From assembly GCF_965283645.1 (NCBI RefSeq), contig NZ_CBDIPG010000002.1, positions 124,113 through 188,112 of the forward strand: a DNA stretch of 64,000 bases, in the 5' to 3' direction. The notes under the pieces were generated by a model, which saw only the letters and a program-made list of their open reading frames with translations, did no database searches and was not told the origin of the DNA. Numbering within the stretch: position 1 is the stretch's first letter; each line of letters opens with the position of its first letter. The DNA comes from Kordia sp. GTDB lineage: Bacteria > Bacteroidota > Bacteroidia > Flavobacteriales > Flavobacteriaceae. Position numbers and translations under genes: made by a program. Positions 2,115 to 14,412 of this stretch are shown one piece after another.

Positions 2115-2354
2115 TTAACAGTTAAAAAGTGTGTTTCCACAACCTCTTGGCGTACAACTCAGCGCCGCATCTGTAAGACACGTTGCATTGGTTCCGCCAC
2201 CAGTTCCTGTTCCTCCTGTGCCACACAAAGCGGCAATTGTATAAGGTGGACAGTCTGCAGTATTTCCAGTTCCTCCTTTTACATTTTGTTTACAAAACGT
2301 AGCAACTTTTTTCTTTTTAAAATTTAATTTTGTCGTAAGATTTTTCTTTTTCAT
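2115..2354 (-). CDS. Putative RiPP/bacteriocin precursor (Bacteroidota Lys-rich leader, GG cleavage, Cys/Thr/Gly-rich core)
   Basis: Leader MKKKNLTTKLNFKKKKVA...VKGG; core with 6 Cys and many Thr. Confidence 0.75.
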   Translation of the reverse strand: MKKKNLTTKLNFKKKKVATFCKQNVKGGTGNTADCPPYTIAALCGTGGTGTGGGTNATCLTDAALSCTPRGCGNTLFNC

Positions 2355-2371
2355 GACAACTATTTTACAAA

Positions 2372-4642: not shown

Positions 4643-5341
4643 ATGAGTATACACATCAACGCAAGAAAAGGCGAAATTGCACCAACGGTTTTATTGCCTG
4701 GCGATCCAATACGTGCCAAATGGATTGCAGAAACTTATTTTGAAAACCCAACGTTATACAACGACATTCGTGGAATGTTTGGCTATACAGGAACGTACAA
4801 AGGAAAACCTATTTCAGTACAAGGTACTGGTATGGGCGCGCCTTCTATTAGTATTTACGCGCATGAATTGATCAACGAATACGATGTGCAAAAATTAATC
4901 AGAGTTGGAAGCGCTGGTTCGTATCAAAAAGATGTAAACATTCGGGATATTGTGGTGGCAATGTCGTCTTCATCAAACAGTAGTATGAACGATTTACCAT
5001 TTCATGGAGAAACGTTTGCACCTACAGCAAATGCCGAATTATTCTTAAAAGCCATCAATGTTGCCAACGAAAAAAACATTCCTGTAAAAGCTGGAAATAT
5101 TTTAACAAGTGATATTTTTTATCAAGAAGATCCTGATTATTATAAAAAATGGGCAAATTATGGCGTTTTATGTGTAGAAATGGAAACAGCATCTTTATAT
5201 ACACTAGCCGCACGATTTAATGTAAAAGCACTATCTTTATTAACAATTTCTGATAGTTTGGTGACCCATGAAACAACAACTTCGGAAGAACGTGCACAAA
5301 CTTTTAAAGAAATGATTGAAATTGCACTCGCAATTATTTAA
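4643..5341 (+). CDS. deoD: Purine nucleoside phosphorylase, DeoD type
   Basis: [33 protein letters not shown]; start at ATG 4643. Confidence 0.95.
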
Positions 5342-5352
5342 ACAAAAAACGA

Positions 5353-5889
5353 ATGAAAAAAAACATTTTACTTCTATTAAGTCTATTCTTAGTAATGAAT
5401 TGCTTCGCGCAAGAATCAAAAGAAAAAAATACTAAATCAAGTGCTGTAGCGGCGAAAACTTCTGTGTATTACTTAATCCGTCATGCTGAGAAAGATCGTA
5501 GTGACAAATCAAACAAAGATCCTAAATTAACCAAAAAAGGTAATGATAGAGCCGCCTATTGGGCAGAAGTATTCAAAAATGTAAAGTTTGATGCTGTCTA
5601 TTCTACAAACTACAACAGAACATTAGAAACGGCAATGCCAATAGCAAAAGCGAATGAATTGGAAATTATTTCATACCATCCTTTTAAGATTAAAATGAAT
5701 AAGTTTTTAAAAGAAACCAAGGGAAAAACTGTTTTAATTGTTGGACATAGTAACACAACTCCTTCATTTGCAAATAAGCTCTTAAACAAAGAAATGTTTG
5801 AATCAATTGAGGACGATAACAACGGAAATGTATATATCGTAACTGTTACTGGCAATGTAAAAACTGTACAGTTATTGACCATTAATTAA
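5353..5889 (+). CDS. Secreted histidine phosphatase superfamily protein
   Basis: Signal peptide; LIRHAEK, RTLETA, IVGHSNT motifs. Confidence 0.88.
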   Translation: MKKNILLLLSLFLVMNCFAQESKEKNTKSSAVAAKTSVYYLIRHAEKDRSDKSNKDPKLTKKGNDRAAYWAEVFKNVKFDAVYSTNYNRTLETAMPIAKANELEIISYHPFKIKMNKFLKETKGKTVLIVGHSNTTPSFANKLLNKEMFESIEDDNNGNVYIVTVTGNVKTVQLLTIN

Positions 5890-5997
5890 ACTTTACCGAA
5901 AAAATAAATATACGAAAAGATTAATGTTGGCAAAACTAGCATTGATCTTTTTTTAGCTTAAAAAGGTAAAATACAGTACAAATTATAGTGGAATCCC

Positions 5998-6005
5998 TAT
6001 ATTTG
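5998..6005 (+). promoter_or_regulatory. -7 promoter box for smpB
   Basis: TATATTTG 9 bp upstream of ATG 6015. Confidence 0.65.
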
Positions 6006-6014
6006 CGCTCATTT

Positions 6015-6473
6015 ATGCAAAAAAATATCAACATACAAAACAAGAAGGCGCGCTTTCAATATGAAATCTTAGATAAGTATACGGCAGGAATTGTCTTAAC
6101 GGGAACTGAGATTAAATCTATTCGAATGAGCAAAGCTTCTATTGCCGAAAGTTTCTGCGAATTTAACGAGCAAGGAGAACTTTTTGTGGTGAATATGTAT
6201 ATTGAAGAATATGCTTTTGGCACGCATTACAATCACCAACCGCGAAGTACACGAAAGTTGTTGTTGAATAAAAAAGAATTGCGAAGCTTAGAAAAAAGTA
6301 TCAAAAACGCTGGATTAACCATTGTTCCGTTGCGTTTATTCTTAAATGAAAAAGGATTGGCAAAATTATCTATTGCGCTTGCAAAAGGTAAAAAGATTCA
6401 TGACAAACGTGAAACGATGAAAGATCGTGACAACAAACGTAACCTGGATCGTATTAAGAAAAATTTCCGTTAA
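6015..6473 (+). CDS. smpB: SsrA-binding protein
   Basis: [39 protein letters not shown]; start at ATG 6015. Confidence 0.97.
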
Positions 6474-6541
6474 GTTTCTACTAGTTATTTACTGTATAAA
6501 ATCACGTCATTACGAGAATTTGTTCGCTCTAATCACATAAT

Positions 6542-6569
6542 TGTCATTCCTGCGAAGATAGGATTCCAT
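6542..6569. repeat. Degenerate REP-like hairpin
   Basis: GTCATTCCTGCGAAGATAGGATTCC is an imperfect palindrome beginning with GTCA. Confidence 0.35.
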
Positions 6570-6617
6570 TTTACTAGTAATTCACGAATTACTTTGCTTG
6601 CATTACGGAAAACCGCA

Positions 6618-6648
6618 TTGTATATGTGTGCATTTTGTTTTACATTTA
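6618..6648 (+). promoter_or_regulatory. Candidate array promoter (Pc-like)
   Basis: TTG-N20-TACATTTA (one mismatch to TAnnTTTG), pointing into the cassette array. Confidence 0.4.
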
Positions 6649-6653
6649 GGGGA

Positions 6654-6742
6654 AATAACAGGAAGTTTCGATAAAAATACTTCCTGTTATTGACTAAATT
6701 TAGTATGAAAACGGGAATTCCTGTTATTCATACGTTAGCTGC
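6654..6742 (+). other. attI-like leader site of the cassette array
   Basis: TTCCTGTTATT at 6681 and 6718, inverted copy at 6654-6664, then GTTAGCT at 6734; no folded left arm, unlike the other sites. Confidence 0.5.
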
Positions 6743-6758
6743 AAGCTGAAAAAATCAA

Positions 6759-7046
6759 ATGGAACCTGAATTAAAAAAATACTTGCTCGAACAATGTCGA
6801 GATTGGATGCTTAAAGAAGAAATCAAAGTATTAAACAGATTAGGATTAACAGAACACGGAGAGACGGTTACACGAAAAAATGCTTTAGTTGAATATAAAA
6901 TGGAATTGTTTTATGGGTTTCAAGACAAAAAAGTAAATGATTTAGTTTCTTTAGAAAAAACTCTTGTGGAAGAAAGAATAGCAGAACGTATATTAAATGA
7001 TAACCCCGATATTCTGAATAATTGCTCAAATTGTGGAAAATTATGA
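6759..7046 (+). CDS. Cassette A hypothetical protein, ends in a lone CxxC
   Basis: 95 aa ORF 25 bp after the GTT site. Confidence 0.6.
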   Translation: MEPELKKYLLEQCRDWMLKEEIKVLNRLGLTEHGETVTRKNALVEYKMELFYGFQDKKVNDLVSLEKTLVEERIAERILNDNPDILNNCSNCGKL

Positions 7047-7447
7047 CTACAGAACCAAGAGGAAGATTATATCAAGATTCTGAATTTGAATTCAATGAGT
7101 TTAACGGATTAAAAATAGAAAAACTAATTGTCTGTGAAAATCCAGAGACTAAAGAGCCTATACTTATTTATATTAAAGTGGAAAATAGAAATTGGCATCA
7201 ATTCTTTTTGGACGCAGGAATAGGGTTTTGGGAAAACTGGGACGAAATTGACATTGAGGATGATTCTTATGATTTCATTGATTTTACTGACAAATTTGAT
7301 TTAAAAAACAAAGTTATTAATAGAATATTCTGTAAAAAAGATTTAAATAATAGCAGAATAATATTAGAACTGAAAAGCAACGAAAAGTTGATTTTAAAAT
7401 GCAAAGAGCCAAATATATTTGATTCTGATTGTGAATTAATAATGTAA
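7043..7447 (+). CDS. Cassette A second hypothetical protein
   Basis: ATG 7043 overlaps the upstream TGA (ATGA); acidic protein. Confidence 0.65.
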   Translation: MTTEPRGRLYQDSEFEFNEFNGLKIEKLIVCENPETKEPILIYIKVENRNWHQFFLDAGIGFWENWDEIDIEDDSYDFIDFTDKFDLKNKVINRIFCKKDLNNSRIILELKSNEKLILKCKEPNIFDSDCELIM

Positions 7448-7456
7448 AAAAGGCCA

Positions 7457-7655
7457 GCAGGTAACAAGGTATAAAAAACATAGGGCGCTTTAGGCTTATC
7501 CGAAAGATCTGTGTGTATTTGCAAAGTCACCGAATATAAAATTTGGCGTTTATGAGAAAAAAGATAAAAGCAAAATATTTATATTTGGCTTAGTACCAAC
7601 TCGAAACGTATCGCTTATTACCTGCCCTACGTTTCTTATACTAGCCGTTGTGCGT
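7457..7655 (+). repeat. attC-like site 1 (long class, about 200 bp)
   Basis: GGTAAC-AAG-GTATAA-N6-TAGGGC ... GCCCTA-N6-TTATAC-TAGCC-GTTGTGC. Confidence 0.8.
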
Positions 7656-7688
7656 CATTTAAGAACACTCGAATAAAAAAAGAAAATT

Positions 7689-7892
7689 ATGACAAATTAT
7701 ATTAACTGTGATAAACCTGAAAGTCCTTTCGGAAGAATTGAATGTAATAATTGCGGAGCGAAATATGATTTTGAATTTGACTCAATAAAAGCACCTTACA
7801 AAGAAACAGGAATTTTAAAATGTGCTTGTGGAGTTGACTTGGTAAGATGGAATAGTACGACTGAACCATATTTGGTAAGAGTTAATGAATAA
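7689..7892 (+). CDS. Cassette B small zinc-ribbon-like protein
   Basis: CNNC and CAC motifs; 67 aa; overlaps the next gene by 8 bp. Confidence 0.6.
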   Translation: MTNYINCDKPESPFGRIECNNCGAKYDFEFDSIKAPYKETGILKCACGVDLVRWNSTTEPYLVRVNE

Positions 7893-8277
7893 AACATACA
7901 AAATACATCTGAATGGAATTCTAATTGGGACTTCTGAATTAGAAAAAGCTGATGCACCAATGGGAGTTGCATTTGGACTGATTGTATTTAACCGAATTGA
8001 ATCGCCATACGAATTCTTTAAAGAATACTGTTTGAAAAACAATATTGTTATAAATACAGACGACCCAGAATTTGAATTTATCGACACTCAAGTGATATCT
8101 GGTTTAAAAGTATTTAGACAAGATGGACTGGAAATAAAAGGAGTTGCTGGAAATGCAATTACAGGAATGAAAAGAGATGGATATGAAATTTCAATTTTAG
8201 GAATCAATTATCCTTTTTACGAAGAAGAATTTCCACATCACGTAAAGGAATATGAAAATTTGTTCGGAAAAGAATAA
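7885..8277 (+). CDS. Cassette B hypothetical protein
   Basis: 130 aa ORF ending just before ACGCACAAC. Confidence 0.7.
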   Translation: MNKTYKIHLNGILIGTSELEKADAPMGVAFGLIVFNRIESPYEFFKEYCLKNNIVINTDDPEFEFIDTQVISGLKVFRQDGLEIKGVAGNAITGMKRDGYEISILGINYPFYEEEFPHHVKEYENLFGKE

Positions 8278-8283
8278 AAACGA

Positions 8284-8423
8284 ACGCACAACACCGTGTA
8301 TAATTAATTGCTTTGGTCGTTGCCTATTTGGAAAATTCCTTCGGAATTTTCTCGCGTTCGTTTTTGTTTACTAAATTAGTTGCTCAAACACGCAACTAAC
8401 CATACACATCAACGTTAGGCTTA
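8284..8423 (+). repeat. attC-like site 2 (medium class, about 140 bp)
   Basis: CACAAC-ACC-GTGTAT ... ATACAC-ATCAAC-GTTAGGC; internal hairpins GAAAATTCC/GGAATTTTC and TTAGTTGC/GCAACTAA. Confidence 0.85.
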
Positions 8424-8454
8424 ATTAGAAAAACCCGAGAGACCAATTCCATAA

Positions 8455-9024
8455 ATGAAAATATTCCTTAAAATTCTTGGACAAATAATAGCACTCGGAA
8501 TAGTAATCTTTTTAGGAATATTATTGACTTGGGAACAAATTCCTGGAAATAAAAATATTTGTGATGCTGGTCAAGGACTTTACGGATTAGCTTGGTTGAT
8601 TTTCATAATTATTTCAATCGCTTTGTTTATAAATTCTTGGATTTTTCTAAATAAAAATAATTGGAAAAAATACCGAATTACTGTTATGATAATCTGTGTA
8701 CTTATCGTTTTAATATCGTTAACTCTAAGGTCTGTGATTTTTCAAGTATCATATGGAAAAGAAAAACATAAAATTGAAAATACCGAAAATTACAATCAGT
8801 TAATTGAAGTAAAACTTTATGAAAATGGAAAATTCTATTCTTGGACTTATGATATGGGTTGTCAATTAGAAAATATCGGAACATATAAATTGAATGGAAA
8901 TAAAATAACATTGGAATTTGGAAATGAAAAATCTGAATATTTAGGAACAGAATATCTAATCGAAAATGATAAAGTTGTCTGTAATAAAGGTTGTGATTAC
9001 GAAAACGAATTGAAAATAGAATAA
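8455..9024 (+). CDS. Cassette C membrane protein (3 predicted TM plus soluble C-terminus)
   Basis: Three hydrophobic stretches in the N-terminal half. Confidence 0.75.
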   Translation: MKIFLKILGQIIALGIVIFLGILLTWEQIPGNKNICDAGQGLYGLAWLIFIIISIALFINSWIFLNKNNWKKYRITVMIICVLIVLISLTLRSVIFQVSYGKEKHKIENTENYNQLIEVKLYENGKFYSWTYDMGCQLENIGTYKLNGNKITLEFGNEKSEYLGTEYLIENDKVVCNKGCDYENELKIE

Positions 9025-9030
9025 AATAAC

Positions 9031-9170
9031 TAAGCCTAACACCGTGTATAATTAATTGCTTTGGTCGTTGCTTATTTGGAAAATTCCTTCGGAAGTTTCT
9101 TGCGTTCGTTTTTGTTTACTAAATTAGTTGCTTAAAGACGCAACTAACCATACACAATCACGTTAGGCAC
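9031..9170 (+). repeat. attC-like site 3 (medium class)
   Basis: Near-identical to site 2: GCCTAAC-ACC-GTGTAT ... ATACAC-AATCAC-GTTAGGC. Confidence 0.85.
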
Positions 9171-9206
9171 AAGCAAAAGAAACCAACATTAACCAACTAT
9201 ATTAGA

Positions 9207-9608
9207 ATGAGTTTAGTTCAAATTGACAAACAAAAACTAATCGATACAGGATTTACGGAATCTGGTGTAAAAAGGTATGAAAATACTATTACAGAATATT
9301 CCCAAATACTATTCGATAAGTCTAAAAAATTCGGAGAAGCGCGAAAGGCCAACGATTCTGCGGTAGAAATAAATTATGAAAATGTTCAAGGAGCTGTGAA
9401 GGTAATTTCTTCAACATTCGCAGATGAAAAAATACCGAAATGGAAATTATGGGCTCAATCTGGTGAATATCTGATAACCGCACTTTGTGGTTATTTAGGT
9501 TCTCAAGCGACACAAGATAATGCACCAAGTCACTTCACAATATTCTTTGTAATATCTGCAGTTGTCGGAGTAGGTTTGTTTATCGTTAGAAAAACTTCAA
9601 AAAACTAA
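9207..9608 (+). CDS. Cassette D protein 1: putative histone-fold domain plus 2 TM helices
   Basis: FTESGVKRY..EYSQILFDKSKKFGEARK..EINYENVQGA pattern; hydrophobic C-terminus. Confidence 0.6.
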   Translation: MSLVQIDKQKLIDTGFTESGVKRYENTITEYSQILFDKSKKFGEARKANDSAVEINYENVQGAVKVISSTFADEKIPKWKLWAQSGEYLITALCGYLGSQATQDNAPSHFTIFFVISAVVGVGLFIVRKTSKN

Positions 9609-9612
9609 AAAA

Positions 9613-10122
9613 ATGAAAAAGTCAATAAAATACACAGATTCGGCTTCAAAAAAACTTAATAGTGTTTTGGAGAAAGTCAAAGAACAAATTGCTGATGATA
9701 TCGTTAATTCTAAAAATTATCCTGGAGAAGAACTTATTGAAATAACAGCTTCAGATATTGAAGAAACTTATCGCAGATTAAGCATACGGAATAACAAGTC
9801 AACATTTTACAGAAAAAGTAAAATGATAAGAATGATAATTCCTGTTTATTTTATTTTGGGTATTATGCTAACACTTTTTGGCATTTTTAGAAAAGATATT
9901 ATGGAATTAATTAAAAATGACAAAGAGGGTCTTATGTATTCACTAACAGGTTTTGTGATATCTCTAACTTCTGCTGCTATATTTTATCTATACAAAAATA
10001 AAGAGAATGAAAGAAGACGTGAATATGAAAAAGAACGTAGAAATCTAAGTAAGTGGATATCTGAAATTGATTTAGAAAAATATGATACTGAATTTCTGAA
10101 AGATGAAAATGCCAGTGCCTAA
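9613..10122 (+). CDS. Cassette D protein 2: putative histone-fold domain plus 2 TM helices and charged tail
   Basis: YTDSASKKL..EITASDIEET pattern; stop codon lies inside GCCTAAC of site 4. Confidence 0.6.
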   Translation: MKKSIKYTDSASKKLNSVLEKVKEQIADDIVNSKNYPGEELIEITASDIEETYRRLSIRNNKSTFYRKSKMIRMIIPVYFILGIMLTLFGIFRKDIMELIKNDKEGLMYSLTGFVISLTSAAIFYLYKNKENERRREYEKERRNLSKWISEIDLEKYDTEFLKDENASA

Positions 10123-10318
10123 CATCGTATAAAAACAATAGGGCAATTGTAGCAAAACCGAATGGTTTGGGCGCATTTGCAAGGTCGCCAAATTTTTAAA
10201 TTTGGCTTATTGAGAAAGAAAAAATAATAAGAAAAATTTAAAAATTCAGCTTGTGGCTCAACCGAATAGATAGCGTGCAAATCTGCCCTACTGTTCTTAT
10301 ACACAACCGTTATATATA
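10115..10318 (+). repeat. attC-like site 4 (long class)
   Basis: GCCTAAC-ATC-GTATAA-N6-TAGGGC ... GCCCTA-N6-TTATAC-ACAACC-GTTATAT. Confidence 0.82.
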
Positions 10319-10703
10319 ATTCAAAAAAAGAATCGGAGACATCCGTTAGAAAAGAGATTTTGGAACGATTTTATGTAGTTTTTAAAATCAATAGGTTTTC
10401 ATTTAAGTTTTTGTCAGTTACACTGTGAAAGACAGTTCTTTCAAACATTGTTAATGTACTCAAAAACTTGATTTAAGGTAGTAGATTTATTTGACAAAAT
10501 CAACTCTTTATAAAAAACGATAAAATCTAACGTTGTAAATGCTAAAAAACAGCACACGCCTTATACAAATATAAAGCGCATCCTTTTTTTTATTTCAAAC
10601 GGATTTCAATGCTCATTTGGGCTCTTTTTTGAACTCCTGTTTTTTACTTGAATTTAAGTTGTATTTTAGTTCAATAAAGAACGCAAAAAAACATATATAT
10701 AAC
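10309..10703 (+). other. Cassette E: apparently non-coding cassette
   Basis: Bounded by GTTATATATA and TATATATAAC; no ORF of 60 aa or more in the track. Confidence 0.65.
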
Positions 10704-10751
10704 ATTGTGTAAACCTGCATTAAAACGCAGTTTACACTTAACGTTACCTGC
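10694..10751 (+). repeat. attC-like site 5 (short class, 58 bp)
   Basis: TATAAC-ATT-GTGTAAACCTGC-8 nt loop-GCAGTTTACAC-TTAAC-GTTACCT, with one unpaired C in the left arm. Confidence 0.8.
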
Positions 10752-10770
10752 AAGCTGAAAAAAATTGAGT

Positions 10771-11460
10771 ATGACAAAAAACATTACACTTCTGATTTTA
10801 ATATTTATTATTTCAAGTTGCTCTGCACAAGAAAATTTTAGAGATTATTATTATCAAATTGGAACAAAAAAGGAAATCAAAGTTTACAAATATGTTGACA
10901 AAAACAATCCAAGGAATATTGAATATTGGAAAGTTACTACAAACCCGAAAACAAATAAAATTCTAACCGAATCTTTCACAACTGATTTTAGACTTTACAA
11001 TATATTCGAGGAAGAGCTGAAAACAAATGGAGCGGAAATAATTCGTTATGCAGATTTTGAGGTTAATGACGAAAAACAGAATATACGGATTGACGGAACG
11101 ATTGTCGATAAAGATGTTTATAAATGGAATGACACAAACAAATATATTTATTCAGTCAAATACACGAGTCCAAAATATGGAAATGAACAATTCATAAAAG
11201 AACGAACTAAAAATAGCTTTGAAAAAATAACTATTAGCGGAACTGAATATTCAACATTAAAATTTAAGGATGAATACGAGATTAAATCACTCGAAAATGA
11301 CCAGAACTATGAATTTCATCAATTTACCTATTACGCAAAGGGAATTGGAATGGTAAAATACCAAAGGTATCATCCAGATGGAGCAACGATTGAATTAGAA
11401 TTAACCGAAATCCTAACTGAAAAAGAATTTGATGAACTGAAAGAAAAAGCCAGCAGGTAA
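10771..11460 (+). CDS. Cassette F lipoprotein
   Basis: Lipobox ISSC; stop codon inside GGTAAC of site 6; start at ATG 10771. Confidence 0.8.
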   Translation: MTKNITLLILIFIISSCSAQENFRDYYYQIGTKKEIKVYKYVDKNNPRNIEYWKVTTNPKTNKILTESFTTDFRLYNIFEEELKTNGAEIIRYADFEVNDEKQNIRIDGTIVDKDVYKWNDTNKYIYSVKYTSPKYGNEQFIKERTKNSFEKITISGTEYSTLKFKDEYEIKSLENDQNYEFHQFTYYAKGIGMVKYQRYHPDGATIELELTEILTEKEFDELKEKASR

Positions 11461-11589
11461 CACCGTATATAATTCATTGCTAGTTATAGCCAGTTTACGA
11501 AAGTCCTCGCGGACTTTATTTGTCCGTAATTTTTTATAAATTAGGTGCTTAAAACACGCAACAAACCATATACAACAACGTTGCCATTA
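11453..11589 (+). repeat. attC-like site 6 (medium class variant)
   Basis: GGTAAC-ACC-GTATAT-N6-TTGC ... GCAA-N6-ATATAC-AACAAC-GTTGCCA. Confidence 0.8.
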
Positions 11590-11599
11590 ATTAGAACCT

Positions 11600-12442
11600 A
11601 TGACCAGAAACATTCCGAAAAAGGTAAGAGAAGCTTTAAGAAAAGAAGTCAATTTTGGATGTCCAATTGATGGTTGTGGCAGTCCTTATTTGAGTTATCA
11701 TCATTTTGACCCACCTTGGCATATTGAAAATCATCATAGACCAGAGGGAATGATTGCATTATGCCTCGAACATCACAAGCAAGCCGATTATAATGCATTC
11801 ACAGATGACCAATTAAAAGAATTTAAAAAAAATCCGTTCCTATCTTCAGATGATTCAATACAAGGTCAAATAAATTGGAAAAGAGAGAATTTAGTTTTCT
11901 TAATTGGGGGAAATGTTTTCATTGGAGCTCAAAATATTTATCTCAATAAACAAGAACAATTGTTGTGGCTCACTACTGATGAACAAGGTAATTCACTTCT
12001 GAATTTAGATATGAAATCCGAAAAGGGAGAATTGATTTTTTCATTACGTGATAATGATTGGTTGGTTATGTCCAATTTTGATAATATTGAAAGTATTCCG
12101 AGCGGAAAAAAATTATTCTTCGAAAATAAAACAGAAGATTTAAAAATCGATATTGAATTTAATAACTATTCAAAAGTCGACTTTCAAAAGAAATATGCAG
12201 AAGATATTCCAGCGAGGTGGATAGAGATAATTACAAATAAAATTGTTGCTGAACCTATCACAGTCTGCGTAATCAATGGTCACTTAACTTATCCTTTTGA
12301 AATTAGAATGGAATCAACAGGCACTACAATAAACGGAGAAGGAAGCGAGATTACTGTAATGGGAAGTCTAACTCTAAAAAATGTCAAGGAACACATAATG
12401 CAAAGAGGATTAGTTGTCGGAAGTGGAGTACTGATAAAGTAA
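11600..12442 (+). CDS. Cassette G protein with N-terminal HNH-type nuclease domain
   Basis: RKEVNFGCPIDGC..YHHFDP..MIALCLEHH. Confidence 0.75.
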   Translation: MTRNIPKKVREALRKEVNFGCPIDGCGSPYLSYHHFDPPWHIENHHRPEGMIALCLEHHKQADYNAFTDDQLKEFKKNPFLSSDDSIQGQINWKRENLVFLIGGNVFIGAQNIYLNKQEQLLWLTTDEQGNSLLNLDMKSEKGELIFSLRDNDWLVMSNFDNIESIPSGKKLFFENKTEDLKIDIEFNNYSKVDFQKKYAEDIPARWIEIITNKIVAEPITVCVINGHLTYPFEIRMESTGTTINGEGSEITVMGSLTLKNVKEHIMQRGLVVGSGVLIK

Positions 12443-12443
12443 C

Positions 12444-12647
12444 TAATGGCAACAATGTATATAAAAAATAACGCAAGTCGTTGCTAAAACAAAGGCTTGG
12501 GCATTATTTGGAAGTCGCCAAATTTTTCAATTTGACAATTTCCTAAAAATAAAATAAATAGTAAAATTTAAAAATTCGGCTTGTGTATAATCTGAAAAGT
12601 ATCGCTTACAACTGCCCTACTTTTCTTATACGGAGACGTTGGCAGTA
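12444..12647 (+). repeat. attC-like site 7 (long class, mismatched left arm)
   Basis: GGCAAC-AAT-GTATAT ... GCCCTA-N6-TTATAC-GGAGAC-GTTGGCA; centre resembles site 4. Confidence 0.75.
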
Positions 12648-12655
12648 ATACCGAA

Positions 12656-13744
12656 ATGAACATAGAATTAGAAAACCTACAATCGACTATAAAAAGGAAG
12701 TACAGTTTTAAATATAAACCTGAATTTTCTGAATCTTTCAAGACAGATATAAAAGACAACCAAATAATCCCATTAACTATTGAAGTTTTTGAAAAATTAG
12801 AATGGCCAATTGTCTTTAGAGACAATAAGTCAGTTGAAGCTAAAAGGAAAGGCGACTGGAATAAACTGACCGAAAAAATAACAATTACCAAAAAGGCTTC
12901 TGGTCGAATTGAGGTTCATAGTAAAACAATTGAAGGTAATTTCATTGATTTCGGAAAAAACTCTAAAAGAACTGGTTTATTCATTATTCTTTTTCAAAAG
13001 TTAGCTAAAGAATACCAAGAAAGCGGAAAACTCTCTGAATTAGAAACGGAGTTTGAAAAAGAAAACAGTTGGGCAGATTATGAAATTCCTTCAGAATTAC
13101 CAAAACCAAAAGAATTTGGAAAACCAAATTTAGTTCTTTCAATAATTGGAGGTCTTATTATCGCAATTCTGTTTGGAATATTAATTGCGTTTTTAACTAC
13201 AAAATTTACCTATTTCATTGGAATCTATGAATTCGCAATTGGAATCGGTATTGGATACTTCTTTGGTCAAGTTTTAAAGAAAACTAATTACATTGAGTTT
13301 AGATCAATTCAATTTATCATTGGAGGAATCGTGATTGTAATGTTTATAACGAATCTATTCACACAATATCAATTAATAATCGCAGAGAATAACATTTCAG
13401 AACTTAGCTTTTTTGAATTTATGAAACTGCGTTTTGAAGGCGGGTTAACAATAAAGGATTTAAATACAGGTTGGATTGGACTTACTTTAAGTTGGGTTTT
13501 TCAAATGGTTTTCCCTTACTTTTTAGCTGTCGGTAAAGTTGCAGGAATTACAGCAAATTATATTATTGAAAAAATTCCTGAAAAAGTACTTGAATATACA
13601 ATTTATCTTTTCGAAATGGAAAAGTCAGAAAGTGAAGTTAGAGCTGAATTAGCACAAAAAGGATGGAATAAAAAGTCTGACCAAGATAATGTTTTTAAAG
13701 CTATTGTCGAGATAAGTGGATTTCATCAAATGAACAGAGAATAA
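12656..13744 (+). CDS. Cassette H membrane protein (soluble N-terminus, about 4 TM)
   Basis: 362 aa with Gly-rich hydrophobic helices in the C-terminal half. Confidence 0.78.
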   Translation: MNIELENLQSTIKRKYSFKYKPEFSESFKTDIKDNQIIPLTIEVFEKLEWPIVFRDNKSVEAKRKGDWNKLTEKITITKKASGRIEVHSKTIEGNFIDFGKNSKRTGLFIILFQKLAKEYQESGKLSELETEFEKENSWADYEIPSELPKPKEFGKPNLVLSIIGGLIIAILFGILIAFLTTKFTYFIGIYEFAIGIGIGYFFGQVLKKTNYIEFRSIQFIIGGIVIVMFITNLFTQYQLIIAENNISELSFFEFMKLRFEGGLTIKDLNTGWIGLTLSWVFQMVFPYFLAVGKVAGITANYIIEKIPEKVLEYTIYLFEMEKSESEVRAELAQKGWNKKSDQDNVFKAIVEISGFHQMNRE

Positions 13745-13750
13745 AAGTAC

Positions 13751-13880
13751 TACTTGGCAACACCGTAAATAATTAATTGCTATTTATAATATACTTATGA
13801 AAACCCTCGCAGATTCTCTATTCATTTTTATTCGCCAAATTATATTCTTAAACAAATAATACACAAAACCATTACCAATA
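13751..13880 (+). repeat. Eroded attC-like site 8 (medium class)
   Basis: GGCAAC-ACC-GTAAATAATTAATTGC left arm aligns to sites 2, 3 and 6; right end reads ATTACC instead of GTT. Confidence 0.55.
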
Positions 13881-13886
13881 ATTAAG

Positions 13887-14282
13887 ATGAAGAAAATAAT
13901 TTTCATATTAACTTTGATATGCATATCTACTATTGGATTCAGTCAAACAGATTCAATTAAAGGAAACCAATTTGAACTAACGGGAAAGATTATCAATGAA
14001 ATTTCTTTAACTCCTCATTGTGGAAATTTTGCTTTCGGAACGGTCGTTGAATTTGAAATTATCGAATTTTCTGACTCCAATTATAAAGGTAGTTCTATAG
14101 GTGTGATTTTTACTTGTCCTGAATTCTATAAAAGTGGATTTTTTGAGATTGGAAAGACTTATACAATTACCATTGCTGATGAAAATCAAGCAGACTTCAG
14201 TTGGATTATTCCTAATGAATATATATTGAATAAATACAAGTTGGACAAAAAACTGTGGGTCATTGAAGCGAATAAGAAATAA
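13887..14282 (+). CDS. Cassette I-like secreted hypothetical protein
   Basis: Signal peptide MKKIIFILTLICISTIGFSQ. Confidence 0.75.
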   Translation: MKKIIFILTLICISTIGFSQTDSIKGNQFELTGKIINEISLTPHCGNFAFGTVVEFEIIEFSDSNYKGSSIGVIFTCPEFYKSGFFEIGKTYTITIADENQADFSWIIPNEYILNKYKLDKKLWVIEANKK

Positions 14283-14412
14283 TAAAATATGAAATCATAG
14301 TTCACTACGGCTGTTATGTTATATATACTAAACGTTACAAATTCCAAATACACAAAACCAAGCACATTCAAGATTTCCCAAATGTGCTCAACTTAAAATA
14401 TAGTAGTGTTTT

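What the first reader, a model, noticed from the sequence alone, without database searches (positions are those of the whole stretch)
9207..10122. Cassette D: tandem pair of putative membrane-anchored histone-fold proteins
Seen: both proteins have an N-terminal pattern resembling histone-fold alpha2-L2-alpha3 (F/Y-T-x-S-G/A-x-K-x-Y/L, a long amphipathic helix, then EINYENVQGA or EITASDIEET, compare archaeal histone TIxxxDIxxA), followed by two hydrophobic helices. They are 4 bp apart and move as one cassette. Established: histone folds dimerise, and transmembrane histone-fold proteins of unknown function have been noted in prokaryote surveys. Inference: a heterodimeric membrane-tethered histone-fold complex on a mobile cassette, possibly a defence or abortive-infection effector or a DNA-sensing module.
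Basis: inference. Interest (0 to 1): 0.74.

Follow-up and report, generated by a model that had tools for sequence, protein, structure and literature searches.

The report
Paired membrane-anchored histone-fold-like proteins on cassette
Two adjacent genes on a mobile gene cassette encode related small membrane proteins whose inner ends resemble the histone fold, a conserved but undescribed pair that travels on integron cassettes, genomic islands and a phage; its function is untested.

Summary
Genes A (9207-9608, 133 aa) and B (9613-10122, 169 aa) are real, 4 nt apart, and lie in one attC-bounded cassette. The same cassette occurs in other Bacteroidota arrays.

- **Paralogy:** the two N-terminal domains are paralogous (hhalign 82-88%, P about 1e-5).
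- **Conservation:** A is followed by B in all 18 distinct loci examined. No third gene recurs.
- **Size and spread:** family A has about 120 clusters at 50% identity. It matches no Pfam, NCBIfam, PADLOC or PHROG model and is rare (2 of 401 genomes of the phylum).
- **Histone fold:** moderately supported. Profile-profile probability is 72-82% in the L1-alpha2-L2-alpha3 register, and 0 of 300 shuffles reach the real score. A divergent member pair gives only histone-clan families as its top Pfam hits. The predicted alpha2 is 32 residues long.
- **Not shown:** no search passes a curated threshold, Foldseek found nothing, and the handshake dimer could not be modelled.
- **DNA binding unlikely:** a near-invariant Glu replaces the DNA-contacting Thr, and the domains are not basic.
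- **Neighbours:** often defence or mobile genes (Shedu, Mrr-nSTAND3, HEPN, toxin-antitoxin, prophage).

Best reading: a self-contained heterodimeric membrane module, probably a conflict or defence effector.

The parts
9034..9168 (+). attC-like site of the preceding cassette. Inverted ends GCCTAAC (R'', RYYYAAC) and GTTAGGC (R', GTTRRRY). The presumed crossover G|TT at 9162/9163 marks the start of the cassette studied here.
   Evidence: Sequence read directly. Repeat families D1/D2/D5 recur along the array. The ends pair in the centroid fold. Pattern scan.
9163..10309 (+). Cassette D (about 1147 bp): two genes plus their own attC. The start TTAGGC is the reverse complement of the end GCCTAA.
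   Evidence: The same ends flank the homologous pair in L009 (Dokdonia). L007 (Fluviicola) has different self-complementary ends (GTTGTGTGCT...AGCACACAAC).
9207..9608 (+). Gene A, 133 aa: cytoplasmic N-domain followed by a membrane hairpin.
   Evidence: ORF. 15 close homologues and 123 clusters at 50% identity. AF2 secondary structure H8-13, H18-49, H57-70, H78-101, H108-130.
9207..9434 (+). A N-domain (residues 1-76), histone-fold-like: short alpha1 (8-13), L1 GFTES (15-19), long alpha2 (18-49), L2 with near-invariant E54, alpha3 (57-70).
   Evidence: hhalign against a histone alignment: 52%, 72% with P 3.3e-5, 82% for the merged A+B profile. 0 of 300 column shuffles reach the real score, and the reversed profile scores 13.5 against 27.6. 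Conserved columns.
9441..9509 (+). A helix 79-101: semi-polar membrane helix carrying near-invariant Glu87 (and Gln84 in close relatives).
   Evidence: Kyte-Doolittle maximum 0.62. E87 is at least 90% conserved in 74 diverse members. Predicted as a helix by AF2.
9528..9596 (+). A transmembrane helix 108-130, followed by the basic C-terminus RKTSKN.
   Evidence: Kyte-Doolittle 2.4. R128 is near-invariant.
9613..10122 (+). Gene B, 169 aa: paralogous N-domain (no alpha1), membrane hairpin and a charged cytoplasmic tail.
   Evidence: ORF. Homologues. Lies directly downstream of A in 18 of 18 distinct loci.
9613..9786 (+). B N-domain (residues 1-58): short strand KSIKYT, helix 9-32, loop with PGEE, then IEITASDIEE (L2-alpha3).
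   Evidence: hhalign to A at 82-88%. hhalign to histones at 10-20%, P 1e-3 to 3e-3, in the same register. AF2 secondary structure.
9826..9993 (+). B membrane hairpin: TM 72-92 (Kyte-Doolittle 2.4), a 14-residue charged loop, and a second helix 106-127 (Kyte-Doolittle 1.57).
   Evidence: Y79, G83 and G113 are invariant in the B alignment.
9994..10119 (+). B C-terminal charged helical tail (128-169). This is the variable part of the family: replaced by TPR repeats in L018, extended by a HEPN-like region in L012, and by a 120-aa extension in P0023.
10117..10315 (+). attC-like site of cassette D. R'' GCCTAAC overlaps the stop codon of B. R' is GTTATAT (imperfect GTTRRRY).
   Evidence: Repeat families D3, D6 and D7.

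Best explanation
The cassette carries a self-contained two-gene operon for two paralogous small inner-membrane proteins.

Each protein has a cytoplasmic N-terminal helix-strand-helix domain of the histone-fold type. In A this is alpha1-L1-long alpha2-L2-alpha3. In B it is the same without alpha1. A two-helix membrane hairpin follows.

Inferred mechanism:
- Close spacing of the genes (4 nt here, overlapping in some loci) suggests both proteins are made together in similar amounts.
- The two N-domains pair as a histone-like heterodimer on the inner face of the membrane. This brings the two hairpins together into a four-helix (or larger) bundle that contains a conserved buried glutamate (A Glu87).
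- The histone-like domain serves as a dimerisation or partner-binding module, not as a DNA binder.
- The variable cytoplasmic tail of B (coiled coil, TPR, HEPN-like) is the input or output end.
- Because the module is rare, mobile (integron cassettes, islands, a phage) and repeatedly next to defence and toxin-antitoxin genes, its most likely role is in conflict. The candidate is a compact abortive-infection or superinfection-exclusion effector that perturbs the membrane when triggered.

Shown: real genes, paralogy, strict pairing, mobility, membrane segments, histone-like register, loss of DNA-contact residues.

Inferred: handshake heterodimer, topology, pore or ion function, defence role.
For: - **Paralogy of the N-domains:** hhalign 87.6%, P 3.5e-6; 82% with larger profiles; HMM cross-hits.
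- **Strict A-then-B order:** seen in 18 of 18 distinct loci from Bacteroidota to high-GC metagenomic contigs and a viral contig. Spacing is 4 nt or overlapping.
- **No third gene:** none recurs within 4 kb in 15 loci.
- **Histone-fold likeness by profile:** A N-domain profile against a histone alignment gives 72%, P 3.3e-5. Merged A+B gives 82%, P 1.1e-5. The register is the same in all comparisons.
- **Controls:** 0 of 300 column shuffles reach the real score, and the reversed control scores far lower. Three of 10 histone sequences fall in the top 30 of 4385 when ranked with the genome's own proteins.
- **Divergent member pair L012:** its only top Pfam hits are in the histone clan. A gives CBFD_NFYB_HMF 0.015, TAFII28 0.021 and TFIID-31kDa 0.051. 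B gives TFIID_20kDa 0.0015.
- **Helix length:** AF2 predicts alpha2 of 32 residues in A. The S-to-I spacing is 35-37 residues against 35 in HMfB, read from the sequences.
- **Small-residue positions kept:** A24, A43 and A63 of histones correspond to G20, S39 and A63 in A.
- **Mobility:** the cassette ends are shared with L009 and L007. One pair lies between a primase and a terminase on an IMG/VR contig. One lies in an integrase island in Dysgonomonas.
- **Rarity:** 2 true hits in 401 genomes of the phylum.
- **Neighbours:** Shedu SduA_C, Mrr_cat-nSTAND3, MNT-HEPN, DpnII/SLFN-helicase/HNH, HigB/HigA-like pair.
- **Background:** integron cassettes are known to be rich in defence systems (bioRxiv 10.1101/2024.07.02.601686).
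- **Variable B tails:** TPR and HEPN-like.
Against: - No match to any histone family passes a curated or database-level threshold. This holds for Pfam, NCBIfam and PDB sequence and profile searches.
- B alone scores only 10-20% against histones, and B has no alpha1.
- Two A members hit Cdc6_lid (0.024). That is the other fold containing the same helix-strand-helix motif.
- The AF2 monomers are of modest confidence (pLDDT 69). Foldseek against the PDB gave nothing below E = 1.
- No multimer model could be made.
- PADLOC and PHROGs give no hit.
- Some loci have only housekeeping neighbours (L014).
- The first membrane helix of A is weakly hydrophobic, so the topology is inferred from the positive-inside rule only.
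Confidence: 0.5

Rival explanations
1. The N-domain is a generic helix-strand-helix or helical-hairpin domain, closer to an AAA+ lid (Cdc6-lid type) or an unrelated fold, and does not form a histone handshake. The two proteins still form a membrane complex, but the histone likeness is only motif-level convergence or very deep shared ancestry.
For: - Nothing passes a threshold for histone families.
- Two A members hit Cdc6_lid at 0.024, and B hits AAA_lid_6 at 0.09.
- B lacks alpha1.
- Foldseek found no histone.
- hhalign probabilities of 52-82% are not decisive.
Against: - The central helix plus L2 is about 32-35 residues, as in histones (29-34), not about 21 as I recall for Cdc6 lids. That Cdc6 figure comes from memory and was not tested here.
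- No P-loop domain precedes it.
- The genome's own AAA+ proteins do not outrank histones in the HH ranking.
- The top Pfam hits of the L012 pair are four different histone-clan families.
- Encoding as a conserved paralogous pair is typical of obligate histone-fold heterodimers.
Confidence: 0.25
2. The pair is an addiction, toxin-antitoxin or holin-antiholin-like membrane pair. One small membrane protein damages the membrane and its paralogue restrains it. The pair is selected because it stabilises cassette arrays or times phage lysis, not because it defends against phages.
For: - Cassette arrays commonly carry toxin-antitoxin cassettes. A HigB/HigA-like pair sits in the same array as one homologue.
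- One pair is phage-borne.
- The proteins are small membrane hairpins with a conserved polar residue.
Against: - Both partners share the same architecture and are equally conserved.
- The phage copy lies between a primase and a terminase, not beside lysis genes.
- B carries sensor-like fusions (TPR) that are unusual for an antitoxin.
- There is no DNA-binding autoregulator.
Confidence: 0.13
3. On this reading the pair has no activity of its own and recruits or activates STAND, HEPN or nuclease partners encoded elsewhere or next door.
For: - Mrr_cat-nSTAND3 lies 170 nt downstream in L001.
- An MNT-HEPN gene lies directly upstream in Dysgonomonas.
- There is a HEPN-like extension on B in L012 and a TPR fusion in L018.
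- The earlier notes e1-2612567 and e1-2612568 are leads only.
Against: - No partner recurs in 15 loci.
- The window's cassette, L009 and L007 carry the pair alone.
- The L001 adjacency looks like two neighbouring decayed cassettes.
Confidence: 0.08
4. The pair is a true membrane-tethered histone that binds DNA, for example to tether the chromosome, a plasmid or incoming phage DNA to the membrane, or to sense DNA.
For: The domain is histone-fold-like and lies on the cytoplasmic side. Some A members have basic N-domains (net charge up to +8).
Against: - Near-invariant Glu (A E54, B E43) sits at the position of the DNA-contacting Thr54 of HMfB. Arg52 is not conserved, and L1 has no Arg19 equivalent.
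- Mean net charge is -0.5 for A and -1.6 for B, against +3 for histone cores.
- Schwab et al. 2024 also note that transmembrane histones lack DNA-binding residues (PMC11390915).
Confidence: 0.04

Closest known systems
'Transmembrane histone' category of prokaryotic histone-fold proteins (Schwab et al. 2024, Nat Commun 15:7950, PMC11390915; example A0A1F9E2M1)
   Same: Both have an N-terminal histone-fold-like domain followed by transmembrane helices. Both lack the conventional DNA-binding residues, have no known function and are found in bacteria.
   Different: That category was listed as single proteins modelled as homodimers, with low ipTM (0.46) for the two entries seen. Here the unit is a conserved operon of two paralogues, implying a heterodimer, and it is carried on integron cassettes and a phage. 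Sequence membership could not be tested. The one UniProt member of this family that I found (A0A1C3J575, Vibrio atlanticus) is not in the held part of their tables.
Archaeal and eukaryotic histone-fold pairs (HMfA/HMfB, NF-YB/NF-YC, TAF pairs; Pfam clan CL0012, e.g. PF00808)
   Same: The L1-alpha2-L2-alpha3 register, the long alpha2 and the conserved small residues at the A24, A43 and A63 equivalents all match. The D/N-I/V motif in alpha3 is kept. Like NF-Y and TAF heterodimers, the unit is encoded as two paralogues.
   Different: Similarity is sub-threshold only. B lacks alpha1. Thr54 is replaced by Glu and Arg52 is lost. The domains are not basic, they are fused to membrane hairpins, and no DNA-related context is present.
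Helix-strand-helix motif of AAA+ lid domains (Pfam Cdc6_lid PF22703, AAA_lid_6 PF17866)
   Same: It shares the ...x-I/V-T-x-x-D/H-V-x-x-A strand-helix signature. There are weak hits in two A members and in B. From my own knowledge, this motif has been proposed as the evolutionary link between lids and histones (Alva and colleagues, 2007).
   Different: There is no ATPase domain, the central helix is about 10 residues longer, and the domain stands alone at the N-terminus of a membrane protein.
Two-gene membrane abortive-infection modules such as RexAB, and the integron cassette system Sucellos (bioRxiv 10.1101/2024.07.02.601686)
   Same: These are compact two-gene units on mobile DNA or integron cassettes with a membrane component thought to collapse membrane potential.
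   Different: No sequence relation was seen. Here both partners are membrane proteins and paralogues of each other, and no phage-protection data exist.
Integron gene cassettes in arrays without an integrase (CALIN)
   Same: attC-like sites have RYYYAAC/GTTRRRY ends. Each cassette start is complementary to its own end. The same cassette occurs in different arrays, and the neighbouring cassettes encode small unknown genes and one has no ORF.
   Different: No integron integrase scores above the TIGR02249 cut-off anywhere in the genome (best 112 bits against 265). The attC sites are long (135-200 nt), and the R' of this cassette is imperfect (GTTATAT).

Membership tests
Histone fold (Pfam clan CL0012; CBFD_NFYB_HMF PF00808 and relatives) | Significant sequence or profile match to a histone-fold family | tested here: inconclusive
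   - The window's proteins give no hit, and the family profiles give none against the PDB.
- hhalign gives 52-82% for A or A+B and 10-20% for B, above all 300 shuffles.
- The divergent member pair L012 has four histone-clan families as its top hits, but all are below the cut-offs.
Histone fold (Pfam clan CL0012; CBFD_NFYB_HMF PF00808 and relatives) | alpha1-L1-alpha2-L2-alpha3 with a long central helix of about 28-30 residues | tested here: inconclusive
   A: AF2 helices 8-13, 18-49 (32 aa) and 57-70 fit. B: helix 9-32, a loop, then a helix from 46, with no alpha1. Model confidence is modest (pLDDT 50-80 in these parts).
Histone fold (Pfam clan CL0012; CBFD_NFYB_HMF PF00808 and relatives) | Head-to-tail 'handshake' dimer with L1-L2 strand pairing | not testable with these tools
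The conserved A+B operon is indirect support.
Histone fold (Pfam clan CL0012; CBFD_NFYB_HMF PF00808 and relatives) | DNA-contact residues (HMfB Arg19 in L1, Arg52/Lys53/Thr54 in L2) and a basic surface | tested here: not met
   Glu sits at the Thr54 position in both families (at least 90% conserved). The Arg52 and Arg19 equivalents are not kept. Mean net charge is -0.5 and -1.6.
Transmembrane histones (Schwab et al. 2024) | Histone-fold domain fused to transmembrane helices, without conventional DNA-binding residues | tested here: inconclusive
   The architecture and the loss of DNA-contact residues fit. The fold itself is only moderately supported.
Transmembrane histones (Schwab et al. 2024) | Sequence relation to the catalogued members (e.g. 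A0A1F9E2M1, A0A0Q0VIG5, A0A7X7ZL04, A0A7Y5J1Q7) | not testable with these tools
   Their sequences cannot be fetched by accession here. A0A1C3J575 of this family is absent from the held, truncated tables.
Integron gene cassette | Bounded by attC sites with R''/R' core sites (RYYYAAC / GTTRRRY) and an imperfect palindrome | tested here: met
   The upstream site has GCCTAAC...GTTAGGC and its ends pair in the fold. The cassette's own attC has GCCTAAC...GTTATAT, which is an imperfect R'. The neighbouring ORF-less cassette has a compact 52-nt palindromic attC.
Integron gene cassette | The same cassette found in different arrays or contexts | tested here: met
   L009 (Dokdonia) has the same ends with other neighbours. 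L007 (Fluviicola) has other ends that are again self-complementary.
Integron gene cassette | Integron integrase (IntI) and attI next to the array | tested here: not met
   No match above the TIGR02249 cut-off in the genome. The array lies between smpB and an AMP-binding/aminotransferase gene. It is therefore a CALIN-type array.
AAA+ lid domain (Cdc6_lid / AAA_lid_6) | Follows a P-loop AAA+ ATPase core in the same protein | tested here: not met
   The domain starts at residue 1 of a 133 or 169 aa membrane protein. There are no ATPase hits.
Known anti-phage defence systems (PADLOC-DB 2.0) | Match to a model of a described defence protein | tested here: not met
   No PADLOC hit for either protein, even at E up to 10.

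The most novel reading that the evidence does not exclude
This is a previously undescribed class of bacterial and phage immunity or conflict effector. An obligate heterodimer of two membrane-anchored histone-fold proteins would use the histone handshake as a cytoplasmic sensor or gate for a four-helix membrane pore with a buried glutamate. It would be small enough to travel as a single integron cassette. If so, the histone fold has been recruited in bacteria for membrane signalling rather than DNA packaging, and the catalogued 'transmembrane histones' would gain a function.
Probability: 0.25. Interest if true: 0.8.

Novelty: new variant of a known kind. Interest (0 to 1): 0.55.

Why it matters
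Membrane-anchored histone-fold proteins have been catalogued in prokaryotes, but they have no known partner, stoichiometry or function. This locus gives them a concrete, testable form.

- It is a strictly conserved operon of two paralogues, about 300 residues in total.
- It needs no other conserved gene.
- It moves on integron cassettes, islands and a phage, and it sits among defence genes.

That makes it cheap to clone and to challenge with phages, and its soluble N-domains are easy to crystallise. A positive result would extend the histone fold to membrane-linked conflict systems and add a very compact system to the defence repertoire of integrons. A negative result would still define a family of about 120 clusters that has no Pfam, NCBIfam, PADLOC or PHROG model.

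Tried and rejected
- **Single-sequence and profile HMM searches** of A and B against Pfam, NCBIfam, PADLOC, PHROGs and PDB sequences gave nothing significant. The weak hits were to membrane-composition families (DUF2207_C, CyanoTRADDas_TM).
- **AF2 monomer models:** pLDDT 69. Foldseek against the PDB gave no match below E = 1 for either model, so it was uninformative rather than negative.
- **First hhalign with shallow alignments (A1 vs A2)** found no relation. It appeared only after the families were widened.
- **The search for related loci with the wide alignment** failed for lack of a conserved stretch.
- **tblastn against plasmids and phages:** no match.
- **Link to the Schwab et al. accession lists** through cluster look-ups: almost all members are metagenomic, and the one UniProt accession is not in the held tables.
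- **Search for a recurrent third gene:** none.
- **Coupling to STAND or ROCO-type NTPases:** rejected as a general rule, because it occurs in only one locus and looks like neighbouring cassettes.
- **L013** turned out to be a TetR regulator and so a false positive.
- **Rfam:** no hit in the array.
- **SLATT or holin membership** was considered, but no such Pfam hit appeared.
Full report
**1. What is there**

The two ORFs are as described: A at 9207-9608 (133 aa) and B at 9613-10122 (169 aa), on the + strand and 4 nt apart.

They sit in an array of repeat-bounded units that runs from just after smpB (5988-6473) to about 14.4 kb. The repeats are attC-like.
- Upstream of A lies GCCTAAC (9034-9040) ... 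GTTAGGC (9162-9168). These fit the RYYYAAC/GTTRRRY core sites, and the ends pair in the centroid fold.
- The cassette's own site begins with GCCTAAC, which overlaps the stop codon of B (10117-10123), and ends at GTTATAT (10309-10315).
- The cassette start (TTAGGC) is the reverse complement of its own end (GCCTAA), as expected for a unit that has been circular.
- The next unit (10310-10743) has no ORF of 60 aa or more. It shows the same rule (TTATAT ... ATATAAC) and has a compact 52-nt palindromic attC.

No integron integrase above the TIGR02249 cut-off exists in the 5.77-Mb genome, so this is an integrase-less (CALIN-type) array.

**2. The genes are real and form a family**

A has 15 close homologues at 62-85% identity. 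A profile search of 1.8 billion representatives found 123 clusters with E of 0.001 or below. All are 100-180 aa with the same architecture.

B has 8 close homologues, and more were recovered from loci.

Neither protein, nor 74 diverse A members, matches any Pfam, NCBIfam, PADLOC or PHROG model or any PDB sequence significantly.

**3. The pair is the unit**

In all 18 distinct loci that I could read, an A gene is followed directly by a B gene, either overlapping or within about 12 nt. These loci are:
- the window and contigs from Fluviicola, Saprospiraceae, Dokdonia, Dysgonomonas and Bacteroidetes bacterium GWF2_41_31;
- genome G083 of the same class;
- several high-GC metagenomic contigs;
- an IMG/VR viral contig.

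An all-against-all comparison of neighbours within 4 kb in 15 loci found no recurrent third gene.

The family is rare. There are 2 true hits among 401 genomes of the phylum; a third hit is a TetR false positive. A member also exists in Vibrio (A0A1C3J575).

**4. Mobility**

- The Dokdonia contig carries the pair with the same cassette ends (GTTAGGCACAAGC ... GCCAGTGCCTAAC) but other neighbours.
- The Fluviicola contig has different, again self-complementary ends.
- GWF2_41_31 keeps decayed ends.
- In Dysgonomonas the pair lies in an island with an integrase and a Fic protein.
- In IMG/VR contig L032 it lies between a primase and a large terminase.
- tblastn found none on plasmids or in deposited phages.

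**5. The two N-domains are paralogous**

With shallow alignments no relation was seen. With wider ones, hhalign aligns A 16-68 to B 7-57 at 87.6%, P 3.5e-6. The figure is 82% with independent rebuilds. Plain HMMs cross-hit at about 1e-4.

**6. Is it a histone fold?**

I built a histone alignment from HMfB, HMfA, HPhA and an archaeal histone A, all checked against PDB entries.

Evidence in favour:
- hhalign of the A family against this alignment gives 52%. A 103-sequence N-domain profile gives 72%, P 3.3e-5. The merged A+B profile gives 82%, P 1.1e-5. B alone gives 10-20%.
- All these alignments use the same register:

| HMfB (histone) | Family A | Family B |
|---|---|---|
| Ser21 | Thr17 | Thr8 |
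| Ala24 | Gly20 | Ala11 |
| Ala43 | Ser39 | Ile30 (not small) |
| Thr54 | Glu54 | Glu43 |
| Ile55 | Ile55 | Ile44 |
| Asp59 | Asn59 | Asp48 |
| Ile60 | Val60 | Ile49 |
| Ala63 | Ala63 | Thr52 (not kept) |

- In controls, the reversed histone profile scores 13.5 against 27.6, and 0 of 300 column shuffles reach the real score for A, B or A+B.
- When 10 histone sequences are mixed with 4375 ORFs of this genome, 3 of them rank in the top 30 for the A profile. In the reverse search, B ranks 6th among the decoys. Neither result is individually significant.
- The divergent but secure member pair in G083 (L012; A-HMM 1e-17, B-HMM 4.5e-27) has only histone-clan families as its top Pfam hits. For A these are CBFD_NFYB_HMF 0.015, TAFII28 0.021 and TFIID-31kDa 0.051. 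For B it is TFIID_20kDa 0.0015. All are below the cut-offs.
- AF2 predicts helices 8-13, 18-49 and 57-70 in A. That is a 32-residue central helix, as in histones.

Evidence against:
- No search passes a threshold.
- Two A members hit Cdc6_lid and B hits AAA_lid_6 weakly. These lids hold the same helix-strand-helix motif.
- B lacks alpha1.
- The AF2 models are of modest confidence, and Foldseek found nothing.

I put about 65% on a histone-type fold. The handshake dimer could not be tested, because only monomer prediction was available.

**7. Probably not a DNA binder**

The residue aligned with the DNA-contacting Thr54 of HMfB is a near-invariant Glu in both families. Arg52 and Arg19 have no conserved equivalents. 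The N-domains are on average slightly acidic, at -0.5 and -1.6, against +3 for histone cores. This agrees with the remark of Schwab et al. 2024 that their 'transmembrane histones' lack DNA-binding residues (PMC11390915).

**8. Membrane part**

- Each protein has one strongly hydrophobic helix (A 108-128, B 72-92) and one weaker helix (A 81-99 at 0.62, B 106-124 at 1.57).
- The weak helix of A carries Glu87, conserved in at least 90% of 74 diverse members. Arg128 closes the hairpin.
- Basic residues flank the cytoplasmic sides, and B has +8 before its first transmembrane helix. This fits an N-in, C-in hairpin, so both N-domains and the tail of B face the cytoplasm.
- The tail of B is the variable part: a charged coil here, TPR repeats in L018, a HEPN-like region (RiboL-PSP HEPN, E 0.0012, sub-threshold) in L012, and a 120-aa extension in P0023.

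**9. Context**

Neighbours include:
- Shedu SduA_C;
- Mrr_cat-nSTAND3;
- a fused MNT-HEPN protein;
- DpnII-like, SLFN-type helicase and HNH genes;
- a HigB/HigA-like pair and a Bro-N protein.

One locus has only housekeeping neighbours. Integron cassettes are documented reservoirs of compact defence systems (bioRxiv 10.1101/2024.07.02.601686). This is association only; PADLOC has no model for these proteins.

**10. Reading**

The best-supported picture is a self-contained heterodimeric membrane module. Its cytoplasmic face is a histone-like pair used for protein-protein pairing, and its membrane face is a small helical bundle with a buried acidic residue.

A conflict role (abortive infection or superinfection exclusion by membrane perturbation) is the most likely function, at about 35-40%. 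It fits the mobility, rarity, neighbours and sensor- or effector-like fusions on B. The rivals are a non-histone helical domain, a toxin-antitoxin or holin-like pair, an adaptor for other immune proteins, and a DNA tether. They are listed with their tests.

**11. Relation to known things and to this scan**

The closest known kind is the 'transmembrane histone' category of Schwab et al. 2024. Membership by sequence could not be tested.

Earlier notes of this scan (e1-2612567 and e1-2612568) describe single transmembrane histones coupled to ROCO GTPases on other DNA. Here there is no conserved NTPase partner, and the unit is a paralogous pair.

What looks new is the obligate two-paralogue operon, its size as a family without any model, and its carriage on integron cassettes and a phage.

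**12. Limits**

- There is no multimer model, no HHpred against full databases and no expression data.
- hhalign P-values are pairwise. At the size of Pfam they would correspond to E of about 0.2-0.7.

Noticed in passing
window 10310-10743: A cassette with no ORF of 60 aa or more. It starts TTATAT and ends with a compact, nearly perfect 52-nt palindromic attC (about 10698-10749, ATATAAC...GTTACCT). It may carry a small RNA, a promoter or a tiny peptide. A weak, chance-level Rfam hit (MIR396, E 0.12) falls inside it.
   Followed up: partly
window about 6500-14400: The whole cassette array lies between smpB and an AMP-binding/PP-binding/aminotransferase gene, with no integrase. The genome has no IntI above the cut-off. 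Two identical 432-aa tyrosine recombinases (G000 C1:1265044 and C1:5513047) give partial IntI-like matches (112 bits against a cut-off of 265). Which enzyme moves these cassettes is open.
   Followed up: partly
L012 (G083:C1) 1874-2887: The B-family protein is extended to 337 aa. Its C-terminal region gives a sub-threshold RiboL-PSP HEPN hit (E 0.0012) and a DnaJ-C11-like end. In Dysgonomonas (L005 5061-5948) a fused MNT-HEPN protein is encoded directly upstream of the pair. This hints at a possible HEPN link.
   Followed up: partly
L018 5973-7163: A B-family protein fused to about six TPR repeats (396 aa). A sensor-type domain is attached to the cytoplasmic tail.
   Followed up: no
L032 (IMGVR_UViG_3300036780_000113) 5001-5830: An A+B pair lies on a 38-kb viral contig between a primase-like gene and the large terminase, so at least one copy is phage-borne.
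   Followed up: partly
L001 6878-7027: The called 49-aa gene between the pair and Mrr_cat-nSTAND3 covers what looks like a decayed attC (GCCAGCGCCTATGC...). It is probably not a gene, and the two flanking units look like former neighbouring cassettes.
   Followed up: partly
window 2258-2356 and 2473-2571: Two 99-nt direct repeats (74% identical, 215 nt apart) lie upstream of the TetR-family gene. Each ends in ...TTTTTCATGA, so they may be the starts of two small paralogous minus-strand ORFs.
   Followed up: no
window 8455-9024 and 12656-13744: Other cassettes in the array also encode unannotated membrane proteins (189 aa and 362 aa) with no Pfam match above the curated cut-off (the 189-aa protein has one weak sub-threshold hit, DUF3112 at E 3e-4).
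   Followed up: no
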